From an uncultured Planctomycetales bacterium (GTDB lineage Bacteria > Omnitrophota > Gorgyraeia > Gygaellales > Profunditerraquicolaceae), in NCBI GenBank assembly GCA_964354795.1, contig CAYHBB010000040.1, forward strand, positions 12,593 to 76,592: a stretch of 64,000 nt of DNA, written 5' to 3'. A model generated the notes under the pieces. It was not told where the DNA came from, searched no databases, and was given only the letters and a program-made list of their open reading frames with translations. This document shows positions 6,702-11,135 of the stretch, piece after piece; positions within the stretch are counted from its first letter, which is position 1, and the number at the start of each line of letters is the position of its first letter. The position numbers and the translations under genes are program-made.

Positions 6702-7372
6702 TTATTTTTACCTTTGCAAACATTCACGCATACTCCGCAAATATACTGGTCAACTAGCTTTTGCCTCTGAAAATCTTTGAGCTTCTCAAGACACTTTGCG
6801 CGATCAAAATCCCTGCTTTCTTCTTTTATCGCCTGAGCCGGACAGGCTGAAACGCAAAGCCTGCAGGTATCGCAACCGTCTTTTGCCGGTTTATCCAACT
6901 TTAACGGCATATCCGTAAGAATAGTGGCCAAGCGGAACTGGCTGCCCAACCTCTTGCTCACCAAAAGATTATTCCTGCCTATCCAGCCCAGACCGGCTAA
7001 AACCCCCAAATGCCGGTGGGATAGATGCGCGGTCTGATTTTCCCAATCCACAATAATGGATGCCGGGATTTGTAGTGCCCTGAAACCTTTACTCTGAATA
7101 TAATTACTTACCTTGAGCGCGGACTGATCCAAAAAAGCATTCACTGTACGATAATGATGAAAATAAAGCCTAGTAGGAGCGCTAGTGATTTCTTCCAGGA
7201 TACTTGAGGAAAGTCTGACACCCAGGCATACTGCCTTATCCAGCTTTTTTAAAACATCTTTAGAAACCTTGATGTGCTCTTTTATGCCGGATATATCCCC
7301 TACCCCGAAAAGCTCTATGCCTAAATTCTGGCAGTATTTTTTAAGCGAATTATACGCGGTTACTTTACTCAT
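6698..7372 (-). CDS. queG: epoxyqueuosine reductase QueG-like protein (short form, 4Fe-4S)
   Basis: 224 aa. The motif WENQTAHLSHRHLGVLAGLGWIGRNNLLVSKRLGSQFRLATILTDMPL resembles the QueG cobalamin/DUF1730 core. There is one CxxCxxCxxxCP ferredoxin motif (CDTCRLCVSACP) plus a C-terminal CGVCVNVC. It is shorter than canonical QueG (~350-380 aa). It sits next to mnmG, another tRNA wobble-modification enzyme. Confidence 0.6.
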   Translation of the reverse strand: MSKVTAYNSLKKYCQNLGIELFGVGDISGIKEHIKVSKDVLKKLDKAVCLGVRLSSSILEEITSAPTRLYFHHYRTVNAFLDQSALKVSNYIQSKGFRALQIPASIIVDWENQTAHLSHRHLGVLAGLGWIGRNNLLVSKRLGSQFRLATILTDMPLKLDKPAKDGCDTCRLCVSACPAQAIKEESRDFDRAKCLEKLKDFQRQKLVDQYICGVCVNVCKGKNK

Positions 7373-9228
7373 TTTTCTAACTTTCTTAAATATACCATCA
7401 ACAACGAGATTGCCGCGGGAGTGACTCCTGAAATGCGCGAGGCCTGCCCTAAATTGATCGGCTTAAACTTCCCCAGTTTTTCCTTTATTTCCCGGGAAAG
7501 GCTTGATAGATTTTTATAATCCAGGTCCTCGGGCAGCCGGATCTTCTCCAGATTCTTTAACCTCTCCACATCCTTAAGCTGCCTCTGAATGAACCCTGAA
7601 TATTTTACCTCTATTTCAATATGACGCAAGGCTAAATCTGAGATTTCTAAACATCCTCGATCCACCTCTTTCAAATCAGGCGCGCTCACCTGCGGCCTCT
7701 TCAAAAGCTCTTCCAGCGTAGTGTCTTTAATAAGTGCCGCGGTATTAAGTTTTCCCAGCCGATTGTTGACTTGCATGCCCGGTTTTATCCGTGTGCTCTT
7801 TAAATAGCGCATTCCGACCTCTATTGATCTAGATTTCTCCTCTACCTGCCGGTATTTCTCTTCACTCAACAAACCAACGTCAAATCCGATTTTGCTCAGA
7901 CGCAAGTCCGCGTTATCTTCGCGAATGATCAGCCGGTACTCGACCCGAGAAGTAAACATACGGTACGGCTCATTGGTGCCCTTGGTAGTCAGATCATCGA
8001 TCAGCACGCCGATATAACTGCTGGAACGGTCTAGGACCAGCGGCTCTTTGCCTCTTACCCGTAAAACTGCATTGATCCCGGCGACTAATCCTTGCGCAGC
8101 CGCCTCTTCATAACCAGTTGTGCCGTTGATCTGCCCGGCTAAATACAGACCCTTAATCAGCTTAGTCTCCAGGGTTGGATTTAGCTGTGTGGGCTCAACC
8201 ACCGCATGCTCAATCCCGTAACCAAAACGGATAACCTTGGCATTCTCTAGCCCTTCGATAGAATGGATCAAATCCAGCTGCACATCTTCAGGTAGGCTTG
8301 TAGAGATGCCATTAGGATATATCTCGTCAGAATCCCTTCCCTGCGGTTCAAGGAATATCTGATGCCTATCTTTATCAGCGAATTTTACGACTTTATCCTC
8401 AATAGACGGGCAATAGCGCACACCTGTGGCCTTGATCAGGCCGGCGTAAAGCGGAGAGCGGTCCAGATTATCACGAATAATTTCATGGGTGCGCGGATTA
8501 GTATGGGTGATGTGACAGGGAACCTGCTCCTGGGACAGACGAGAGGTAAAAAACGAGAATGGCTTTGGCGGCTTATCCCCCTCCTGGATAATAAGCTTGG
8601 AGAAATCTATTGAGCTCTTATTTAAACGAGGGCAAGTGCCGGTTTTAAAACGTAAAAGGTTAAAATTTAATTCTTTAAGATTTTGAGCCAGACTTGCAGA
8701 AGCAGGCTCATTGATCCGGCCTCCGGGATGATGATTTAGGCCGATATGGATCAGGCCGTCCAGAAAGGTTCCGGCACAGATAATCACGCACTGAGCGGTA
8801 ATCCTCTCATTATCCTGCGTCAGGACCCCGCATGCCCGGCCGCCTTCTACTATCAATTCTTTTACCTGTGCTTCTTTCACGCTCAGGCCTTCGGTTTCTC
8901 CGGCAAGCCTTACCATGTAGCGATTATACTGATACATGTCTACCTGGGCCCGCGATGACTGCACTGCCGCGCCTTTAGAAGCATTAAGAATACGAAACTG
9001 TATGCCGCAGGCATCTGCGGCTAAACCCATTTCACCGCCCAAGGCATCTATTTCCTTGACCAGCTGGCCTTTACCTACGCCTCCGATAGCCGGATTACAG
9101 CTCATGGCGCCAATCGTGCTCTTATCAAGATTCAGCATCAGGGTCTTGCAACCCAGGCGCGCACCTGCCAATGCCGCTTCCACGCCGGCATGTCCGGCAC
9201 CGACCACTATAATATCGAAATCATTCAT
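7369..9228 (-). CDS. mnmG: tRNA uridine 5-carboxymethylaminomethyl modification enzyme MnmG (GidA)
   Basis: A full-length MnmG homolog. It has the N-terminal FAD dinucleotide motif DIIVVGAGHAG, as in MnmG N-termini, and conserved blocks along its whole length. The ORF track extends to a TTG at 9252, but the ATG at 9228 (MNDFDIIVVGAGHAG) matches MnmG N-termini. The extension would overlap the left IR of the RAYT element. Confidence 0.9.
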   Translation of the reverse strand: MNDFDIIVVGAGHAGVEAALAGARLGCKTLMLNLDKSTIGAMSCNPAIGGVGKGQLVKEIDALGGEMGLAADACGIQFRILNASKGAAVQSSRAQVDMYQYNRYMVRLAGETEGLSVKEAQVKELIVEGGRACGVLTQDNERITAQCVIICAGTFLDGLIHIGLNHHPGGRINEPASASLAQNLKELNFNLLRFKTGTCPRLNKSSIDFSKLIIQEGDKPPKPFSFFTSRLSQEQVPCHITHTNPRTHEIIRDNLDRSPLYAGLIKATGVRYCPSIEDKVVKFADKDRHQIFLEPQGRDSDEIYPNGISTSLPEDVQLDLIHSIEGLENAKVIRFGYGIEHAVVEPTQLNPTLETKLIKGLYLAGQINGTTGYEEAAAQGLVAGINAVLRVRGKEPLVLDRSSSYIGVLIDDLTTKGTNEPYRMFTSRVEYRLIIREDNADLRLSKIGFDVGLLSEEKYRQVEEKSRSIEVGMRYLKSTRIKPGMQVNNRLGKLNTAALIKDTTLEELLKRPQVSAPDLKEVDRGCLEISDLALRHIEIEVKYSGFIQRQLKDVERLKNLEKIRLPEDLDYKNLSSLSREIKEKLGKFKPINLGQASRISGVTPAAISLLMVYLRKLEK

Positions 9229-9235
9229 AATATAC

Positions 9236-9851
9236 CCAGGGACGGTTCTCAAAACAAAGCAAAAGTGTCCCTTTTTGTTATTTATTTATGTTAGAAATTG
9301 GCACCTTGTCCGTCTATTATATTAGGAGGTGGTGAATATGACTAGGATAGCCAGGATAGCTATGGACAATGCTGTGTATCATATTATCACAAGGGGCAAT
9401 CAGAAACAAACGGTTTTTAGAGAACAACGAGATTATACGGAGTATTTATCGCGGCTGGAATTCTATAAGAAGAAATACGCCTTCAAGCTATATTCATTTT
9501 GCCTGATGCCTAACCATGTACATTTAATTATCGAGGTAGATGTTAATTCGAAGTTAAACAAGATTATGCGAGGACTAAATCTTAGTTACACCTTATATTT
9601 TAATTTCAAATATAAGACCGTTGGGCATCTTTGGCAAGATCGTTTTAAGAGTAAAATTATCGAGAAAGATACATATCTCCTAGAATGTATTAATTATATT
9701 GAAGCAAATCCTCTGCGAGCAAACCTAACATCAAATATAGAAGAATATGTCTGGAGTAGTTATGCTTTTAAGAAAAAAGAGAATACTCTTTTAGACAACA
9801 TATTCTCTTTATAGGGGGACACTTTTCGATTGAGTTGAGAACCGTCCCTGG
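9236..9851. mobile_element. Compact RAYT element bounded by nested inverted repeats (REP-doublet-like)
   Basis: A perfect 17-bp inverted repeat occurs as ccagggacggttctcaa (9236-9252) and ttgagaaccgtccctgg (9835-9851). An inner 11-bp inverted repeat occurs as aaaagtgtccc (9261-9271) and gggacactttt (9816-9826). Together they bracket the RAYT gene exactly. The element fills the whole gap between mnmG and apgM. Confidence 0.65.
9329..9814 (+). CDS. REP-associated tyrosine transposase (RAYT) / IS200-like Y1 transposase
   Basis: 161 aa. It has the HUH motif (PNHVHLIIE) and a downstream catalytic Tyr region (YIEANPLRA) typical of the Y1_Tnp (IS200/RAYT) fold. It is the only plus-strand gene in the window and is flanked by nested inverted repeats. 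Confidence 0.8.
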   Translation: MVNMTRIARIAMDNAVYHIITRGNQKQTVFREQRDYTEYLSRLEFYKKKYAFKLYSFCLMPNHVHLIIEVDVNSKLNKIMRGLNLSYTLYFNFKYKTVGHLWQDRFKSKIIEKDTYLLECINYIEANPLRANLTSNIEEYVWSSYAFKKKENTLLDNIFSL

Positions 9852-11135
9852 CTATTCTTTTGCGAGTTTTACCAGGAGGGGCATGATATCTGTTCCGTTG
9901 ATCTGGCCGATGCTCCCAAGCTTTGCGGCTTTTTCTGAGAAGCTCATTGAGCCATCAGGCTTTATATTTCCCCCGCAGACCAGTAAAGGAACAGGATCTG
10001 CGGTGTGAGCCCTAGCTTTGCAGCTGGTAGAGTGATCTGCGGTCACCGCGATTATAGAATTCTCCAAATCAAGGCCCTGCAGCAAGGGCCCGAAGAAATG
10101 CTTGTCGATGGCTTCGATGACCTCGATCTTACGCTTACAATCTCCGTCATGCGAGGGGTCATCCGGGCCCTTGATATGGATATACAATCCATCAAAACTC
10201 TTGATACACTCAACTGCCAGCTTCCCCCATACCGGATAATCTACGTCAAAGTGACCCGTGGGCTGCGGCACATCAATGACTTCTATCCCGGTCAAAAGGG
10301 CAATCCCCTTCTCTACCGGCATCTGCACAAAGGAAGCGAATTTAAGGCCGAAGTTCTTTTCTACGGAAGGAAATTTCGGCAAGGAATCTCCGGCATCGCG
10401 CATCAATATAAGATTTCCCGCTAGCTTCCCCTCCAAGACCCTTTTCTTATTCAGCGAAGACTCATTTAAGACCTTGTTAGACTTTACAGTAAACTCATTT
10501 AACAGCTTTGCAGTCTCCCGAGCCTCGATAGATCCTTCATGGCCGGGCATGGGGATTGAATCTAAAACCAGATTCTCAAACTTCTCCCTTGCCACGCCAA
10601 AAAAACCTTGCCTGCCATAAGCCGGGTCAGTGTTAGTCACCAAACCGGACAATTTAGAGCGCACGCCGCGGATGATCAGTATCCCGCGATGGCCGATAGT
10701 GCTCTTAAACTCAAAAGTCCCGCTACTTAAGGTCACCTTTTGGTTGATCTCTTTGGCCAGCATCGCCGCGTCATCCGTAGCCAAGTCTCTGCCTACGCGC
10801 CGGTCAAGAATGGTGCGCCCGTCATCGCCAGCTGTAGCAAAGTTCACCCGCAAAGCCACATCCCCATCATTAGTAGGCACGCCTTCGGCAAAAGATTCAA
10901 GCGGCCCCCGGCCGGTATAAAACTTAGCCGCGTCATACCCTAAGAGGCTGATCACCGCGATGTCAGACTCAGGAGCGATGCCCTTTGCCACCGGATAAAC
11001 CACGCCGGTTATACCTTTCTGCGCAAGCCGGTCCATATTAGGCGTAACTGCCGCCTCAAGCGGAGTCTTGTTTTTAAGCTCTTTTAAAGGCAGGTCTCCC
11101 AAGCCGTCCAACACCACATATACTATTTTCTTCAT
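9852..11135 (-). CDS. apgM: 2,3-bisphosphoglycerate-independent phosphoglycerate mutase, archaeal type (ApgM family)
   Basis: 427 aa. The N-terminus MKKIVYVVLDGLGD...KTPLEAAVTPNMDRLA and the metalloenzyme core are collinear with ApgM-type iPGMs. Confidence 0.8.
   Translation of the reverse strand: MKKIVYVVLDGLGDLPLKELKNKTPLEAAVTPNMDRLAQKGITGVVYPVAKGIAPESDIAVISLLGYDAAKFYTGRGPLESFAEGVPTNDGDVALRVNFATAGDDGRTILDRRVGRDLATDDAAMLAKEINQKVTLSSGTFEFKSTIGHRGILIIRGVRSKLSGLVTNTDPAYGRQGFFGVAREKFENLVLDSIPMPGHEGSIEARETAKLLNEFTVKSNKVLNESSLNKKRVLEGKLAGNLILMRDAGDSLPKFPSVEKNFGLKFASFVQMPVEKGIALLTGIEVIDVPQPTGHFDVDYPVWGKLAVECIKSFDGLYIHIKGPDDPSHDGDCKRKIEVIEAIDKHFFGPLLQGLDLENSIIAVTADHSTSCKARAHTADPVPLLVCGGNIKPDGSMSFSEKAAKLGSIGQINGTDIMPLLVKLAKE

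What the first reader, a model, noticed from the sequence alone, without database searches (positions are those of the whole stretch)
9236..9851. 616-bp RAYT element with nested perfect terminal inverted repeats wedged exactly between mnmG and apgM
The only plus-strand gene encodes a 161-aa HUH Y1 transposase of the RAYT/IS200 type. It is bracketed by a perfect 17-bp inverted repeat (9236-9252 / 9835-9851) and an inner 11-bp inverted repeat (9261-9271 / 9816-9826). This is the arrangement expected for a RAYT flanked by an inverted REP doublet (REPIN-like), not a classical IS200/IS605, which lacks terminal IRs. The left IR abuts or overlaps the mnmG start region (a TTG-extended mnmG ORF would read through it). 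The right IR ends 1 nt before the apgM stop codon. So the insertion sits in a 623-nt gap with no spare sequence. I did not find further copies of the 17-mer in the window.
Basis: seen in the sequence. Interest (0 to 1): 0.6.

Follow-up and report, generated by a model that had tools for sequence, protein, structure and literature searches.

The report
Omnitrophota RAYT gene flanked by REPs
This is a single-copy, transposase-derived gene (a RAYT) bracketed by its two inverted recognition repeats; it has sat just upstream of the housekeeping gene mnmG for a long time in a group of Omnitrophota bacteria, and in related genomes the same two repeats, joined without the gene, form small scattered hairpin elements (REPINs) – a known kind of system, seen here in a phylum where I found no description of it.

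Summary
A 36-40 nt imperfect inverted repeat (perfect outer 17-mer, perfect inner 11-mer) brackets the window's only plus-strand gene and fills the mnmG-apgM gap apart from 7 nt.

The gene is a RAYT. It is more likely 158 aa from ATG 9338 than 161 aa. NCBIfam REP_Tyr_transpos scores 79.6 bits (cutoff 80), against 22 bits for IS200. Its best sequence and fold match in the PDB is E. coli TnpA_REP (4ER8).

The 17-mer is the outer half of a REP unit, YAGGGACGGTTCTCAA-N8-RAAASTGTCCCC. In about 21 Omnitrophota-type species genomes, two such units head-to-head form 75-84 nt REPINs. These equal the window element minus its 544-nt interior. One relative has both the mnmG-linked RAYT and at least 10 REPINs.

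It is not a fresh insertion. Orthologues with the same flanking REPs lie upstream of mnmG in 11 other sequence-distinct loci, and their divergence roughly tracks that of mnmG. Three relatives, including the closest, have an empty junction.

One thing could not be shown: dispersed REPINs in the source genome. The window holds none, and no more of that genome could be fetched.

This is a new member of a known kind, of moderate interest.

The parts
9236..9271 (+). Left REP unit, on the 5' side of the RAYT gene ('A-type' middle, AACAAAGC). Outer half is CCAGGGACGGTTCTCAA (9236-9252) and inner half is AAAAGTGTCCC (9261-9271). It is an imperfect palindrome: GGGACGGTTCT against AAAAGTGTCCC gives 8 Watson-Crick pairs, 1 G-T and 2 mismatches out of 11.
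   Evidence: nhmmer with a REP profile built from related genomes gives E = 6.7e-12. Stem count. Weak DNA hairpin of -5.1 kcal/mol.
9290..9320 (+). Conserved promoter-like stretch for the RAYT gene. GTTAGAAA (9290-9297, -35-like) is followed after 17 nt by TATTAT (9315-9320, -10-like), inside the CGTCTATT block (9311-9318), which is invariant apart from one nearly invariant position.
   Evidence: Promoter scan hit at 9292-9320. GTTAGA is invariant, and CGTCT.TT is invariant apart from one column, across 12 orthologous loci, while the surrounding spacer varies.
9324..9329 (+). Shine-Dalgarno sequence AGGAGG, 8 nt before ATG 9338.
   Evidence: Read directly from the sequence. A purine-rich Shine-Dalgarno-like stretch (AGGAGG, AAGGAGG or GGGAGG) lies at this position in 11 of the 12 orthologous loci.
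9338..9814 (+). RAYT (REP-associated tyrosine transposase, HUH-Y1) coding sequence, 158 aa. HUH motif is H60-V-H62. WQDRF lies at 99-103. The catalytic-type Tyr is Y120, in YIEANP.
   Evidence: Pfam Y1_Tnp at 69 bits. NCBIfam REP_Tyr_transpos at 79.6 bits against a cutoff of 80. H60, H62, Y120, N124 and P125 are invariant in 40 homologues. Profile match to 4ER8 aligns the HUH, WQxRF and YIxxNP motifs. AlphaFold2 model has pLDDT 85.5 and its top fold hit is 4er8_A.
9816..9851 (-). Right REP unit, on the 3' side of the RAYT gene ('B-type' middle, CTCAATCG), in inverted orientation. Inner half is 9816-9826 and outer half is 9835-9851. The inner end GGGGACAC (9815-9822), whose first base lies one base outside this 36-nt unit, starts one base after the RAYT stop codon (9812-9814). 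The outer end touches the apgM stop codon (9852-9854).
   Evidence: nhmmer gives E = 1.2e-11. Sequence read.
7369..9228 (-). Neighbour gene mnmG (gidA). Its start codon is 7 nt from the left REP.
   Evidence: TIGR00136 at 851 bits. Pfam GIDA. Start codon fixed by orthologues.
9852..11135 (-). Neighbour gene apgM (cofactor-independent phosphoglycerate mutase family). Its stop codon directly abuts the right REP.
   Evidence: TIGR00306 at 407 bits against a cutoff of 320. Pfam PhosphMutase and Metalloenzyme.

Best explanation
Window 9236-9851 is a 'REPtron': a single-copy RAYT gene with its own promoter and Shine-Dalgarno sequence, flanked by its two cognate REP units in inverted orientation with the conserved GGGACGGTTCTCAA halves facing outwards.

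**What is shown.**
- The unit is an old, vertically inherited resident of the region just upstream of mnmG in a clade of Omnitrophota. It is not a recent insertion.
- In related genomes the same two REP units, joined by a 4-8 nt spacer, form 75-84 nt hairpin elements (REPINs). These sit in short intergenic spacers, usually within a few bases of neighbouring stop or start codons.
- Shown here: the anatomy, the family assignment of the protein, the conserved position, the conservation of the flanking REPs, the existence of REPINs in relatives, and their higher similarity within a genome than between genomes.

**Proposed mechanism (inferred).** This rests on what is established for E. coli TnpA_REP and for IS200/IS605 TnpA. 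The RAYT would bind the imperfect hairpin that each REP forms in single-stranded DNA. It would cleave next to the conserved YA/GGGAC boundary through a 5'-phosphotyrosine link made by Y120, with H60 and H62 holding the metal ion. In this way it would excise and reinsert REPINs in trans, while the gene itself stays put.

**Also inferred.** The REPs probably double as RNA or DNA hairpins at gene boundaries: at the 3' end of apgM and in the 5' leader of mnmG.
For: **Protein.**
- REP_Tyr_transpos scores 79.6 bits against 22.4 for IS200.
- A profile of 40 homologues hits only 4ER8 (TnpA_REP) significantly, E = 1.4e-5, against E = 0.3 for ISDra2 TnpA. The HUH, WQxRF and YIxxNP motifs align.
- The Foldseek top hit is 4er8_A, TM 0.69.
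- The catalytic residues are invariant in 40 homologues.

**Repeats.**
- The 17-mer scan of 185,579 species genomes gave 93 loci. In 44 of them the 17-mer has the REP context, that is, the inner xYGTCC motif follows within 26 nt.
- All but one of these 44 (L047) carry the label Omnitrophota or are TPA 'Planctomycetales' or 'Planctomycetia' MAGs. They come from about 21 assemblies.
- The other 49 loci are about what chance predicts (my estimate is roughly 70 for 596 Gb on both strands).
- 25 REPINs align to one consensus with 38 invariant columns and a 27-pair consensus hairpin of -39 kcal/mol.

**Same genome.** CAZNGC01 has mnmG-RAYT with flanking REPs (L085) and at least 10 REPINs on other contigs.

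**Amplification.** REPINs are 88% alike within a genome and 81% alike between genomes (Mann-Whitney p = 2e-17; the pairs are not independent).

**Old resident.**
- Orthologues at 61-73% identity to the window protein (plus a 99%-identical near-copy in L180), all flanked by the same inverted REPs, lie upstream of mnmG in L029, L036, L069, L085, L098, L099, L108, L175, L177, L178 and L180.
- Pairwise RAYT identity tracks pairwise mnmG identity: Pearson r = 0.83, Spearman 0.43.
- The promoter-like motifs upstream of the gene are conserved.
Against: - No REP or REPIN other than the two flanking units was found in the 64-kb window. The rest of the source genome could not be fetched. A live REPIN population in this particular genome is therefore unproven.
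- Unbiased sampling suggests REPINs are sparse: 1 REPIN in about 124 kb, counting the window plus L175, L177 and L178.
- The NCBIfam score is 0.4 bits below the curated cutoff.
- Each REP's own hairpin is weak in the window copy (-3.6 to -5.1 kcal/mol, not different from shuffles).
- The pairs of the REPIN hairpin are almost all invariant, so covariation says nothing for or against the structure.
- The correlation with mnmG is driven largely by one close cluster (L036, L085, L108).
- The closest relative by mnmG (L095, 78%) lacks the unit, so at least one loss or gain must be assumed.
- No biochemical or expression data exist for this protein.
Confidence: 0.8

Rival explanations
1. Relic system. 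The RAYT and its two flanking REPs are retained in this genome, but the dispersed REPIN population has died out or never expanded. The unit would then be a domesticated, or decaying, single-copy gene with no current mobilising role here.
For: - No further REP was found in 64 kb, even with a profile search.
- Two relatives also show none in 20 kb around the gene (L177, L178).
- In the 99%-identical relative the left 17-mer already carries a substitution (L180).
Against: - At a density of about 1 per 100 kb, an empty 64-kb window is expected roughly half the time (my estimate).
- The catalytic residues and both REPs are intact and conserved across species, which argues for continued selection on the protein-DNA pair.
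Confidence: 0.25
2. Active autonomous insertion sequence of the IS200/IS605 type that recently inserted between apgM and mnmG as a 616-bp mobile unit.
For: - The element fills the gap exactly and has perfect 17-bp terminal repeats.
- The gene's GC content is 0.33, against 0.49 for mnmG.
- Three relatives have an empty junction.
Against: - The same gene sits at the same place in 11 other sequence-distinct loci, with divergence similar to that of mnmG.
- It occurs once in the window, and every ortholog locus examined carries a single copy of this gene. One of them also holds a diverged paralogue with different outer repeats.
- The low GC content is shared by all orthologues, so it is not a sign of recent arrival.
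- IS200/IS605 ends are asymmetric sub-terminal hairpins, not terminal inverted repeats (established knowledge). The protein scores only 22 bits on the IS200 model.
- The empty sites of L095 and L097 hold unrelated sequence, not a clean pre-insertion site.
Confidence: 0.04
3. The inverted repeats are primarily host regulatory hairpins: a terminator or mRNA stabiliser for apgM and a leader structure for mnmG. Their association with the transposase-like gene would then be incidental.
For: - REPIN and RAYT-unit ends lie 0-6 nt from neighbouring stop codons in about two thirds of cases, and 5-11 nt from the mnmG start codon in 8 species.
- RAYT-less relatives carry a different long hairpin in the same gap.
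Against: - Neither REP arm is followed by a T-run, and the terminator scan finds nothing at the arms.
- The same repeats flank every orthologous RAYT, whatever the downstream neighbour: apgM, ribonucleotide reductase or other genes.
- A paralogous RAYT carries a different repeat class. This is the one-transposase-one-repeat pattern.
- A regulatory side-role is compatible with the main explanation rather than a replacement for it.
Confidence: 0.1

Closest known systems
REPIN-RAYT systems / REPtrons of Proteobacteria (E. coli TnpA_REP with REP/BIME; Pseudomonas fluorescens SBW25 RAYTs with REPINs; Bertels & Rainey 2011, PMC3116915; Bertels et al. 2017, PMC5581495; structure 4ER8, PMC3479197)
   Same: - A single-copy HUH-Y1 gene flanked by two inverted, imperfectly palindromic repeats.
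- The same repeats form head-to-head doublets (REPINs) in intergenic space.
- Inheritance is vertical and the gene keeps a conserved position.
- The best sequence and fold match is TnpA_REP.
- The flanking 16/17-mer has a moderate copy number, like the roughly 12-14 occurrences reported for RAYT groups 1 and 4 (PMC5581495).
   Different: - The host phylum is different (Omnitrophota). I found no paper combining RAYT or REPIN with Omnitrophota.
- The repeat sequence is different: YAGGGACGGTTCTCAA...TGTCCCC. The 5' tag is YAG, and only sometimes GTAG.
- The protein is only about 17% identical to E. coli TnpA_REP.
- The outer half of the REP is nearly invariant across species whose MnmG proteins are only 65-70% identical.
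- REPINs appear sparse: tens per genome, not hundreds.
TIRtrons / TIRYTs (RAYT-like genes flanked by long terminal inverted repeats sharing GGGGWSAS; Di Nocera et al. 2013, PMC3733652; subclass 2.1 of Quentin et al. 2018, PMC6006769)
   Same: - The flanks can be read as 36-40 nt terminal inverted repeats.
- The inner end of the arms, GGGGACAC or GGGGACAG, fits the published GGGGWSAS consensus and sits at a fixed short distance from the coding sequence.
- The repeats form moderately abundant families, organised as dimers.
   Different: - Subclass 2.1 proteins are reported to carry a C-terminal helix-turn-helix domain (PMC6006769). This 158-aa protein has only the Y1_Tnp domain.
- Here each arm is itself an imperfect palindrome, that is, REP-like.
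- Membership could not be tested against TIRYT sequences.
IS200/IS605-family insertion sequences (IS200, IS608, ISDra2)
   Same: The HUH-Y1 fold and catalytic motifs. The predicted chemistry is on single-stranded DNA hairpins.
   Different: - The gene is not multi-copy and is fixed at one locus across species.
- The flanks are symmetric inverted repeats rather than distinct left-end and right-end sub-terminal hairpins.
- The IS200 model scores 22 bits against a cutoff of 55.
- There is no tnpB.

Membership tests
RAYT (REP-associated tyrosine transposase, TnpA_REP) | HUH metal-binding motif and catalytic tyrosine of the Y1 HUH fold | tested here: met
   H60-V-H62 and Y120 are invariant in 40 homologues. 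Pfam Y1_Tnp scores 69 bits. The AlphaFold2 model matches HUH-Y1 transposases.
RAYT (REP-associated tyrosine transposase, TnpA_REP) | Closer to TnpA_REP than to IS200/IS605 TnpA in sequence and structure | tested here: met
   By profile, 4ER8 gives E = 1.4e-5 and ISDra2 gives E = 0.3. By Foldseek, 4er8_A has TM 0.69 and E = 1.8e-7, ahead of IS608, IS200 and ISDra2. NCBIfam REP_Tyr_transpos scores 79.6 bits against 22.4 for IS200.
RAYT (REP-associated tyrosine transposase, TnpA_REP) | Passes the curated NCBIfam NF047646 cutoff (80 bits) | tested here: inconclusive
   The score is 79.6 bits, 0.4 below the cutoff, with full-length coverage (residues 5-140 of the protein on positions 3-146 of the model).
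RAYT (REP-associated tyrosine transposase, TnpA_REP) | Gene flanked by REP sequences in inverted orientation | tested here: met
   Arms at 9236-9271 and 9816-9851. The same holds at 11 orthologous loci.
RAYT (REP-associated tyrosine transposase, TnpA_REP) | Single copy per genome, vertically inherited | tested here: inconclusive
   There is one copy in the window. Position next to mnmG is conserved in all loci sampled, and divergence is correlated with mnmG. Whole-genome copy number could not be tested. One relative has a second, diverged paralogue with different outer repeats.
REPIN-RAYT system | The flanking repeat recurs as head-to-head doublets (REPINs) dispersed in the same genome as the RAYT | tested here: inconclusive
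   Met in a relative: CAZNGC01 has the RAYT at mnmG (L085) and at least 10 REPINs on other contigs. Not met within the source window: no further copy in 64 kb. The rest of the source genome was not retrievable.
REP (repetitive extragenic palindrome) | A 20-40 nt imperfect palindrome, extragenic, with a conserved unpaired 5' tag (GTAG in the classical families) | tested here: met
   The unit is about 36 nt. On average 8.9 of 11 stem positions are Watson-Crick pairs across 119 arms (five of those positions are fixed by the search pattern); the window arms have 8 plus 1 G-T. All copies are intergenic. The tag is YAG: A at position -1 in 103 of 119 arms and C or T at position -2 in 107 of 119. It is GTAG in only a minority.
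TIRYT / TIRtron (Di Nocera 2013) | Flanking terminal inverted repeats carrying GGGGWSAS at a fixed distance from the gene | tested here: met
   In the right arm, GGGGACAC (9815-9822) starts one base after the stop codon. The left arm has AGGGACAC, one mismatch to the consensus. The REPIN consensus has GGGGACAG. The consensus itself is taken from PMC3733652 and PMC6006769.
TIRYT / TIRtron (Di Nocera 2013) | C-terminal helix-turn-helix domain, reported for subclass 2.1 proteins | tested here: not met
   Only Y1_Tnp (residues 10-123) is detected in 158 aa. The model shows only short helices after residue 124.
IS200/IS605 insertion sequence | Passes the IS200 transposase model; multi-copy; asymmetric sub-terminal hairpins | tested here: not met
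   NF033573 scores 22.4 bits against a cutoff of 55. The unit has symmetric inverted arms and one fixed locus across species.

The most novel reading that the evidence does not exclude
The Omnitrophota unit may represent a deep, locus-fixed RAYT lineage.
- Its recognition core (YAGGGACGGTTCT) has stayed essentially invariant while housekeeping proteins diverged to 65-70% identity.
- The same GGGACGGTT core also marks repeats that flank a 40%-identical RAYT in a Clostridiales genome (L090), and palindromes in Lachnospiraceae and other Bacillota MAGs (L025, L041, L020).

If so, this would be a third, cross-phylum 'tagged' REP superfamily with its own dedicated RAYT clade. Its REPINs, lying flush against stop and start codons in compact genomes, might be kept because they serve the host as gene-boundary punctuation and not only as selfish DNA.
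Probability: 0.15. Interest if true: 0.55.

Novelty: new member of a known kind. Interest (0 to 1): 0.35.

Why it matters
RAYT-REPIN systems have been characterised mostly in Proteobacteria. What RAYTs do for their hosts is still an open question (PMC5581495).

This case adds a clean example from an uncultivated, small-genome phylum:
- one gene kept in one place, upstream of mnmG, across many species;
- presence/absence variation between close relatives;
- a nearly invariant 15-nt repeat core;
- a sparse REPIN population that fills whole intergenic spacers.

These features allow natural comparisons of genomes with and without the RAYT, which bear on the prediction that REPINs decay once the RAYT is lost. 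For annotation, it also shows that 'transposase' calls next to mnmG in Omnitrophota MAGs are not signs of recent mobile DNA or misassembly.

It does not change the current understanding of how such systems work.

Tried and rejected
**Fetching more of the source genome failed.**
- An exact look-up of the RAYT gave only a 2.7-kb Logan contig.
- The left-edge protein is not on record.
- The right edge is a 12,019-aa ORF, too long to look up.
- The cluster look-up gave no accession.
- The source genome is not among the GTDB species representatives: no locus has the +/- pair 600 bp apart.

**Searches that found nothing.**
- Single-sequence phmmer against the PDB found nothing. A 40-sequence profile was needed.
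- Rfam gave no match in 9000-10100 at E up to 1.
- A literature search for the motif strings returned only unrelated primer sequences.

**Ideas rejected.**
- *Terminator reading of the arms.* There is no T-run and no scan hit at either arm.
- *Link to 'CGTC-tagged' REPs, which are reported to lack a transposase (PMC3733652).* The complement of the core does contain CGTC. But the published architecture is an unpaired CGTC, an 8-9 bp stem, a 4-5 nt loop and a CCA tail, which differs from this element. I treat the resemblance as coincidental; it was not tested against the published sequences.
- *Proximity to the replication origin, because mnmG/gidA flanks oriC in some bacteria.* GC skew is negative in 15 of the 16 4-kb bins, with no lasting sign change across the window. 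The same gap in RAYT-less relatives is only 45-151 nt.
- *Simple insertion into an L095-like empty site.* The empty sites hold unrelated hairpin sequence and nothing of it remains in the window, so no clean target site or duplication can be defined.

**Uninformative result.** Covariation in the REPIN hairpin: 23 of 27 pairs show no compensatory (both-sides) change, and 17 of them never vary at all.
Full report
**1. The observation**

The sequence is as described.
- The 17-mer CCAGGGACGGTTCTCAA lies at 9236-9252 on the plus strand and at 9835-9851 on the minus strand. It has no other match in 64 kb, even at 3 mismatches. None of 100 shuffles gave two matches.
- The 11-mer AAAAGTGTCCC lies at 9261-9271 and 9816-9826.
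- The repeat finder merges both into a 40-nt, 85%-complementary inverted repeat with 544 nt between the arms.
- The arms differ only in the 8 bases between the two perfect blocks (AACAAAGC against CTCAATCG) and at one flanking base.

The neighbouring genes are confirmed.
- mnmG: TIGR00136, 851 bits.
- apgM: TIGR00306, 407 bits.

Details to correct:
- The product is most likely 158 aa from ATG 9338. AGGAGG at 9324-9329 overlaps the GTG of the 161-aa ORF.
- The homologues listed are nearly all 156-162 aa, and all 40 aligned start at the ATG.
- mnmG starts at ATG 9228, so 7 nt separate it from the left arm.
- The right arm touches the apgM stop codon.
- The gene is the only real plus-strand gene in the window.

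**2. The protein**

- Pfam Y1_Tnp scores 69 bits.
- NCBIfam REP_Tyr_transpos scores 79.6 bits against a cutoff of 80. The IS200 model scores 22.4 bits against a cutoff of 55.
- In an alignment of 40 homologues, H60, H62, W99, Q100, R102, Y120, N124 and P125 are invariant.
- A profile of that alignment finds E. coli TnpA_REP (4ER8) at E = 1.4e-5, with the HUH, WQxRF and YIxxNP motifs aligned. ISDra2 TnpA reaches only E = 0.3.
- The AlphaFold2 model has mean pLDDT 85.5. Its best PDB fold match is 4er8_A, at TM 0.69. IS608, IS200 and ISDra2 follow.

So this is a RAYT-type enzyme, not a classical IS200 transposase.

**3. The repeats elsewhere**

An exact scan of one genome per species (185,579 species) for the 17-mer returned 93 loci.
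- In 44 of them the 17-mer is followed by the inner xYGTCC motif.
- All but one of these 44 (L047, labelled a delta proteobacterium, probably a chance match) are labelled Omnitrophota, or are TPA 'Planctomycetales' or 'Planctomycetia' MAGs. They come from about 21 assemblies.
- The other 49 are scattered over unrelated taxa, mostly inside genes. That is about the number expected by chance (my estimate is roughly 70).

In the Omnitrophota-type loci the usual arrangement is a doublet of this form:

YAGGGACGGTTCTCAA-N8-RAAASTGTCCCC, then a spacer of 4-8 nt, then GGGGACASTTY-N8-TTGAGAACCGTCCCTR

- These doublets are 75-84 nt long.
- Twenty-five of them align with 38 invariant columns and fold into a 27-pair consensus hairpin of -39 kcal/mol. 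Almost no pair varies, so covariation is uninformative.
- A doublet is exactly the window element with its 544-nt interior removed.
- Many doublets, including most of those in CAZNGC01, pair an 'A-type' arm (AACAAAGG) with a 'B-type' arm (CTCAAAGC). The window's gene-proximal 5' and 3' arms show the same pairing.
- Each single unit is itself an imperfect palindrome. On average 8.9 of 11 stem positions pair (five of those positions are fixed by the search pattern). The window arms have 8 pairs plus one G-T. The window hairpins are weak on their own.
- The base before GGGAC is A in 103 of 119 arms, and the one before that is C or T in 107 of 119. This gives a 'YAG' tag, sometimes GTAG.

**4. One genome with both parts**

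Assembly CAZNGC01 has mnmG followed by the RAYT with flanking REPs (L085). It also has at least 10 REPINs on other contigs: L007, L014 (two), L031, L033, L038 (two), L054, L062 and L094.

REPINs are more alike within a genome (88%) than between genomes (81%). This is what intragenomic copying predicts. The pairs are not independent, so the p-value overstates the case.

**5. A resident, not an arrival**

The gene has orthologues upstream of mnmG in the following loci:
- L029, L036, L069 and L085;
- L098, L099 and L108;
- L175, L177, L178 and L180.

They are 61-73% identical to the window protein, apart from L180, a 99%-identical near-copy. All of them are flanked by the same inverted REPs.

The downstream neighbour is usually apgM. 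It is ribonucleotide reductase in L178 and another gene in L036 and L085.

Pairwise RAYT identity follows pairwise MnmG identity (Pearson 0.83, Spearman 0.43). One close cluster (L036, L085, L108) drives much of this correlation.

Between the left REP and the start codon, GTTAGA is invariant over 12 loci. So is CGTCT.TT, apart from one nearly invariant column. A promoter-like hit lies at 9292-9320.

The gene's GC content is 10-15 points below that of mnmG in all nine species tested. Low GC is therefore a family trait, not evidence of recent transfer.

**6. Empty junctions**

Three relatives have apgM directly followed by mnmG, with no RAYT and no REP:
- L095: the closest relative, 78% MnmG identity, gap 124 nt;
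- L096: gap 45 nt;
- L097: gap 151 nt.

L095 and L097 carry a different AT-rich long hairpin in that gap. None of it remains in the window. No clean pre-insertion site or target duplication can therefore be defined. Loss or replacement in those lineages is the simpler reading, given section 5.

**7. 'No spare sequence' is a family property**

REPINs and RAYT units in relatives lie 0-6 nt from the neighbouring stop codon in about two thirds of cases. They lie 5-11 nt from the homology-verified mnmG start codon in 8 species. Distances to other start codons are biased low by how I picked starts. These elements occupy whole intergenic spacers in compact genomes.

**8. What could not be shown**

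- The window holds no other REP, even by profile search.
- More of the source genome could not be obtained.
- Unbiased sequence around orthologues yielded one extra REPIN in about 124 kb (L175 403-480). An empty 64-kb window is therefore not informative.

**9. Mechanism**

The anatomy, family assignment, conserved position and REPIN populations in relatives are shown.

The rest is inferred from E. coli TnpA_REP (PMC3479197, and as summarised in PMC3733652) and from IS200/IS605 chemistry. On that inference, the enzyme:
- binds the REP hairpin in single-stranded DNA;
- cuts beside the conserved boundary through Y120, with H60 and H62 holding a metal ion;
- moves REPINs in trans while the gene stays fixed.

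A side-role of the arms as RNA or DNA hairpins at the apgM 3' end and in the mnmG leader is plausible but untested. There is no terminator-like T-run and no Rfam match.

**10. Comparison with what is known**

The unit fits the REPtron / REPIN-RAYT concept (PMC3116915, PMC5581495).

Its inner arm motif, GGGGACAS, fits the GGGGWSAS consensus of the 'TIRtrons' of Di Nocera et al.. However, it lacks the C-terminal helix-turn-helix domain reported for that subclass.

I found no paper linking RAYT or REPIN to Omnitrophota and none containing the motif in this sense.

It is a new member of a known kind, and interest is moderate.

Noticed in passing
window 27839-63898 (-): One uninterrupted ORF of 12,019 aa (36 kb) fills more than half of the window. 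Every plus-strand ORF of at least 150 aa in that span is a shadow of it.
   Followed up: no
L095 822-942; L097 5853-6000: In RAYT-less relatives the apgM-mnmG gap holds a different long AT-rich hairpin of about 110-140 nt, built of CCTAAA/TTTAGG-like units. It is unrelated to the REP described here.
   Followed up: partly
L004, L013, L026, L030 (1556-1900), L032, L034, L057 (2600-3000), L077, L087 (assembly JBAYES01): In this Omnitrophota genome the 17-mer is not followed by an inverted partner. Instead it is followed by a tandem array of 3-5 units of about 23 nt (..AATCCYACACCTGTCCC). In at least two loci (L030, L057), and apparently in L034 and L087, such an array and a second 17-mer head flank a conserved core of about 190 nt. 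This is a composite, MITE-like repeat using the same outer and inner motifs.
   Followed up: partly
L177 17744-18546: A second RAYT paralogue (160 aa) lies 8 kb from the mnmG-linked one. It has the same upstream GTTAGAAA...CGTCTATTAT motif and the same inner GTACCTGTCCC/GGGACAGGTAC motif. Its outer repeats are different (GCACCTGGTGC palindromes). This fits each RAYT having its own repeat class.
   Followed up: partly
L090 2160-3300 (Clostridiales MAG); L025, L041 (Lachnospiraceae); L020 (Bacillota); L061: The GGGACGGTT(C)TC core also occurs in palindromic repeats outside Omnitrophota. In L090, several GGGGACGGTTCC units flank a RAYT that is 40% identical to the window protein. This suggests a recognition core shared across phyla.
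   Followed up: partly
window 9338-9814 and orthologues in L029, L036, L069, L085, L099, L175, L177, L178: The RAYT ORF has GC 0.30-0.37, against 0.40-0.50 for the adjacent mnmG, in all nine species tested. The deficit persists despite apparent vertical inheritance.
   Followed up: partly
L098 486-544 and 1100-1159; L099 5295-5351 and 5992-6016: In two orthologous loci the outer GGGACGGTTCT motif of each RAYT-flanking arm is duplicated in tandem about 22 nt apart.
   Followed up: no
REPIN and RAYT-unit ends in about 35 loci (for example L038 4613-4692, L014 2860-2937, L177 9909-10532): Element ends lie 0-6 nt from neighbouring stop codons in about two thirds of cases, and a few bases from start codons. 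Any Shine-Dalgarno sequence for the downstream gene would therefore have to lie inside the repeat end (CCCTGG, CCCTGA or CCCTAA).
   Followed up: partly
window 9252 (-) and 9835 (+): The inverted repeat creates two mirror-image TTG-initiated reading frames that both begin MRTVPGY. One is the spurious 8-codon extension of mnmG. The other is a 57-aa ORF antisense to apgM.
   Followed up: no
window 1-64000: All real genes except the RAYT are on the minus strand. GC skew of the plus strand is negative in 15 of 16 4-kb bins. The RAYT is therefore the only gene in the window on the strand opposite all the others.
   Followed up: no
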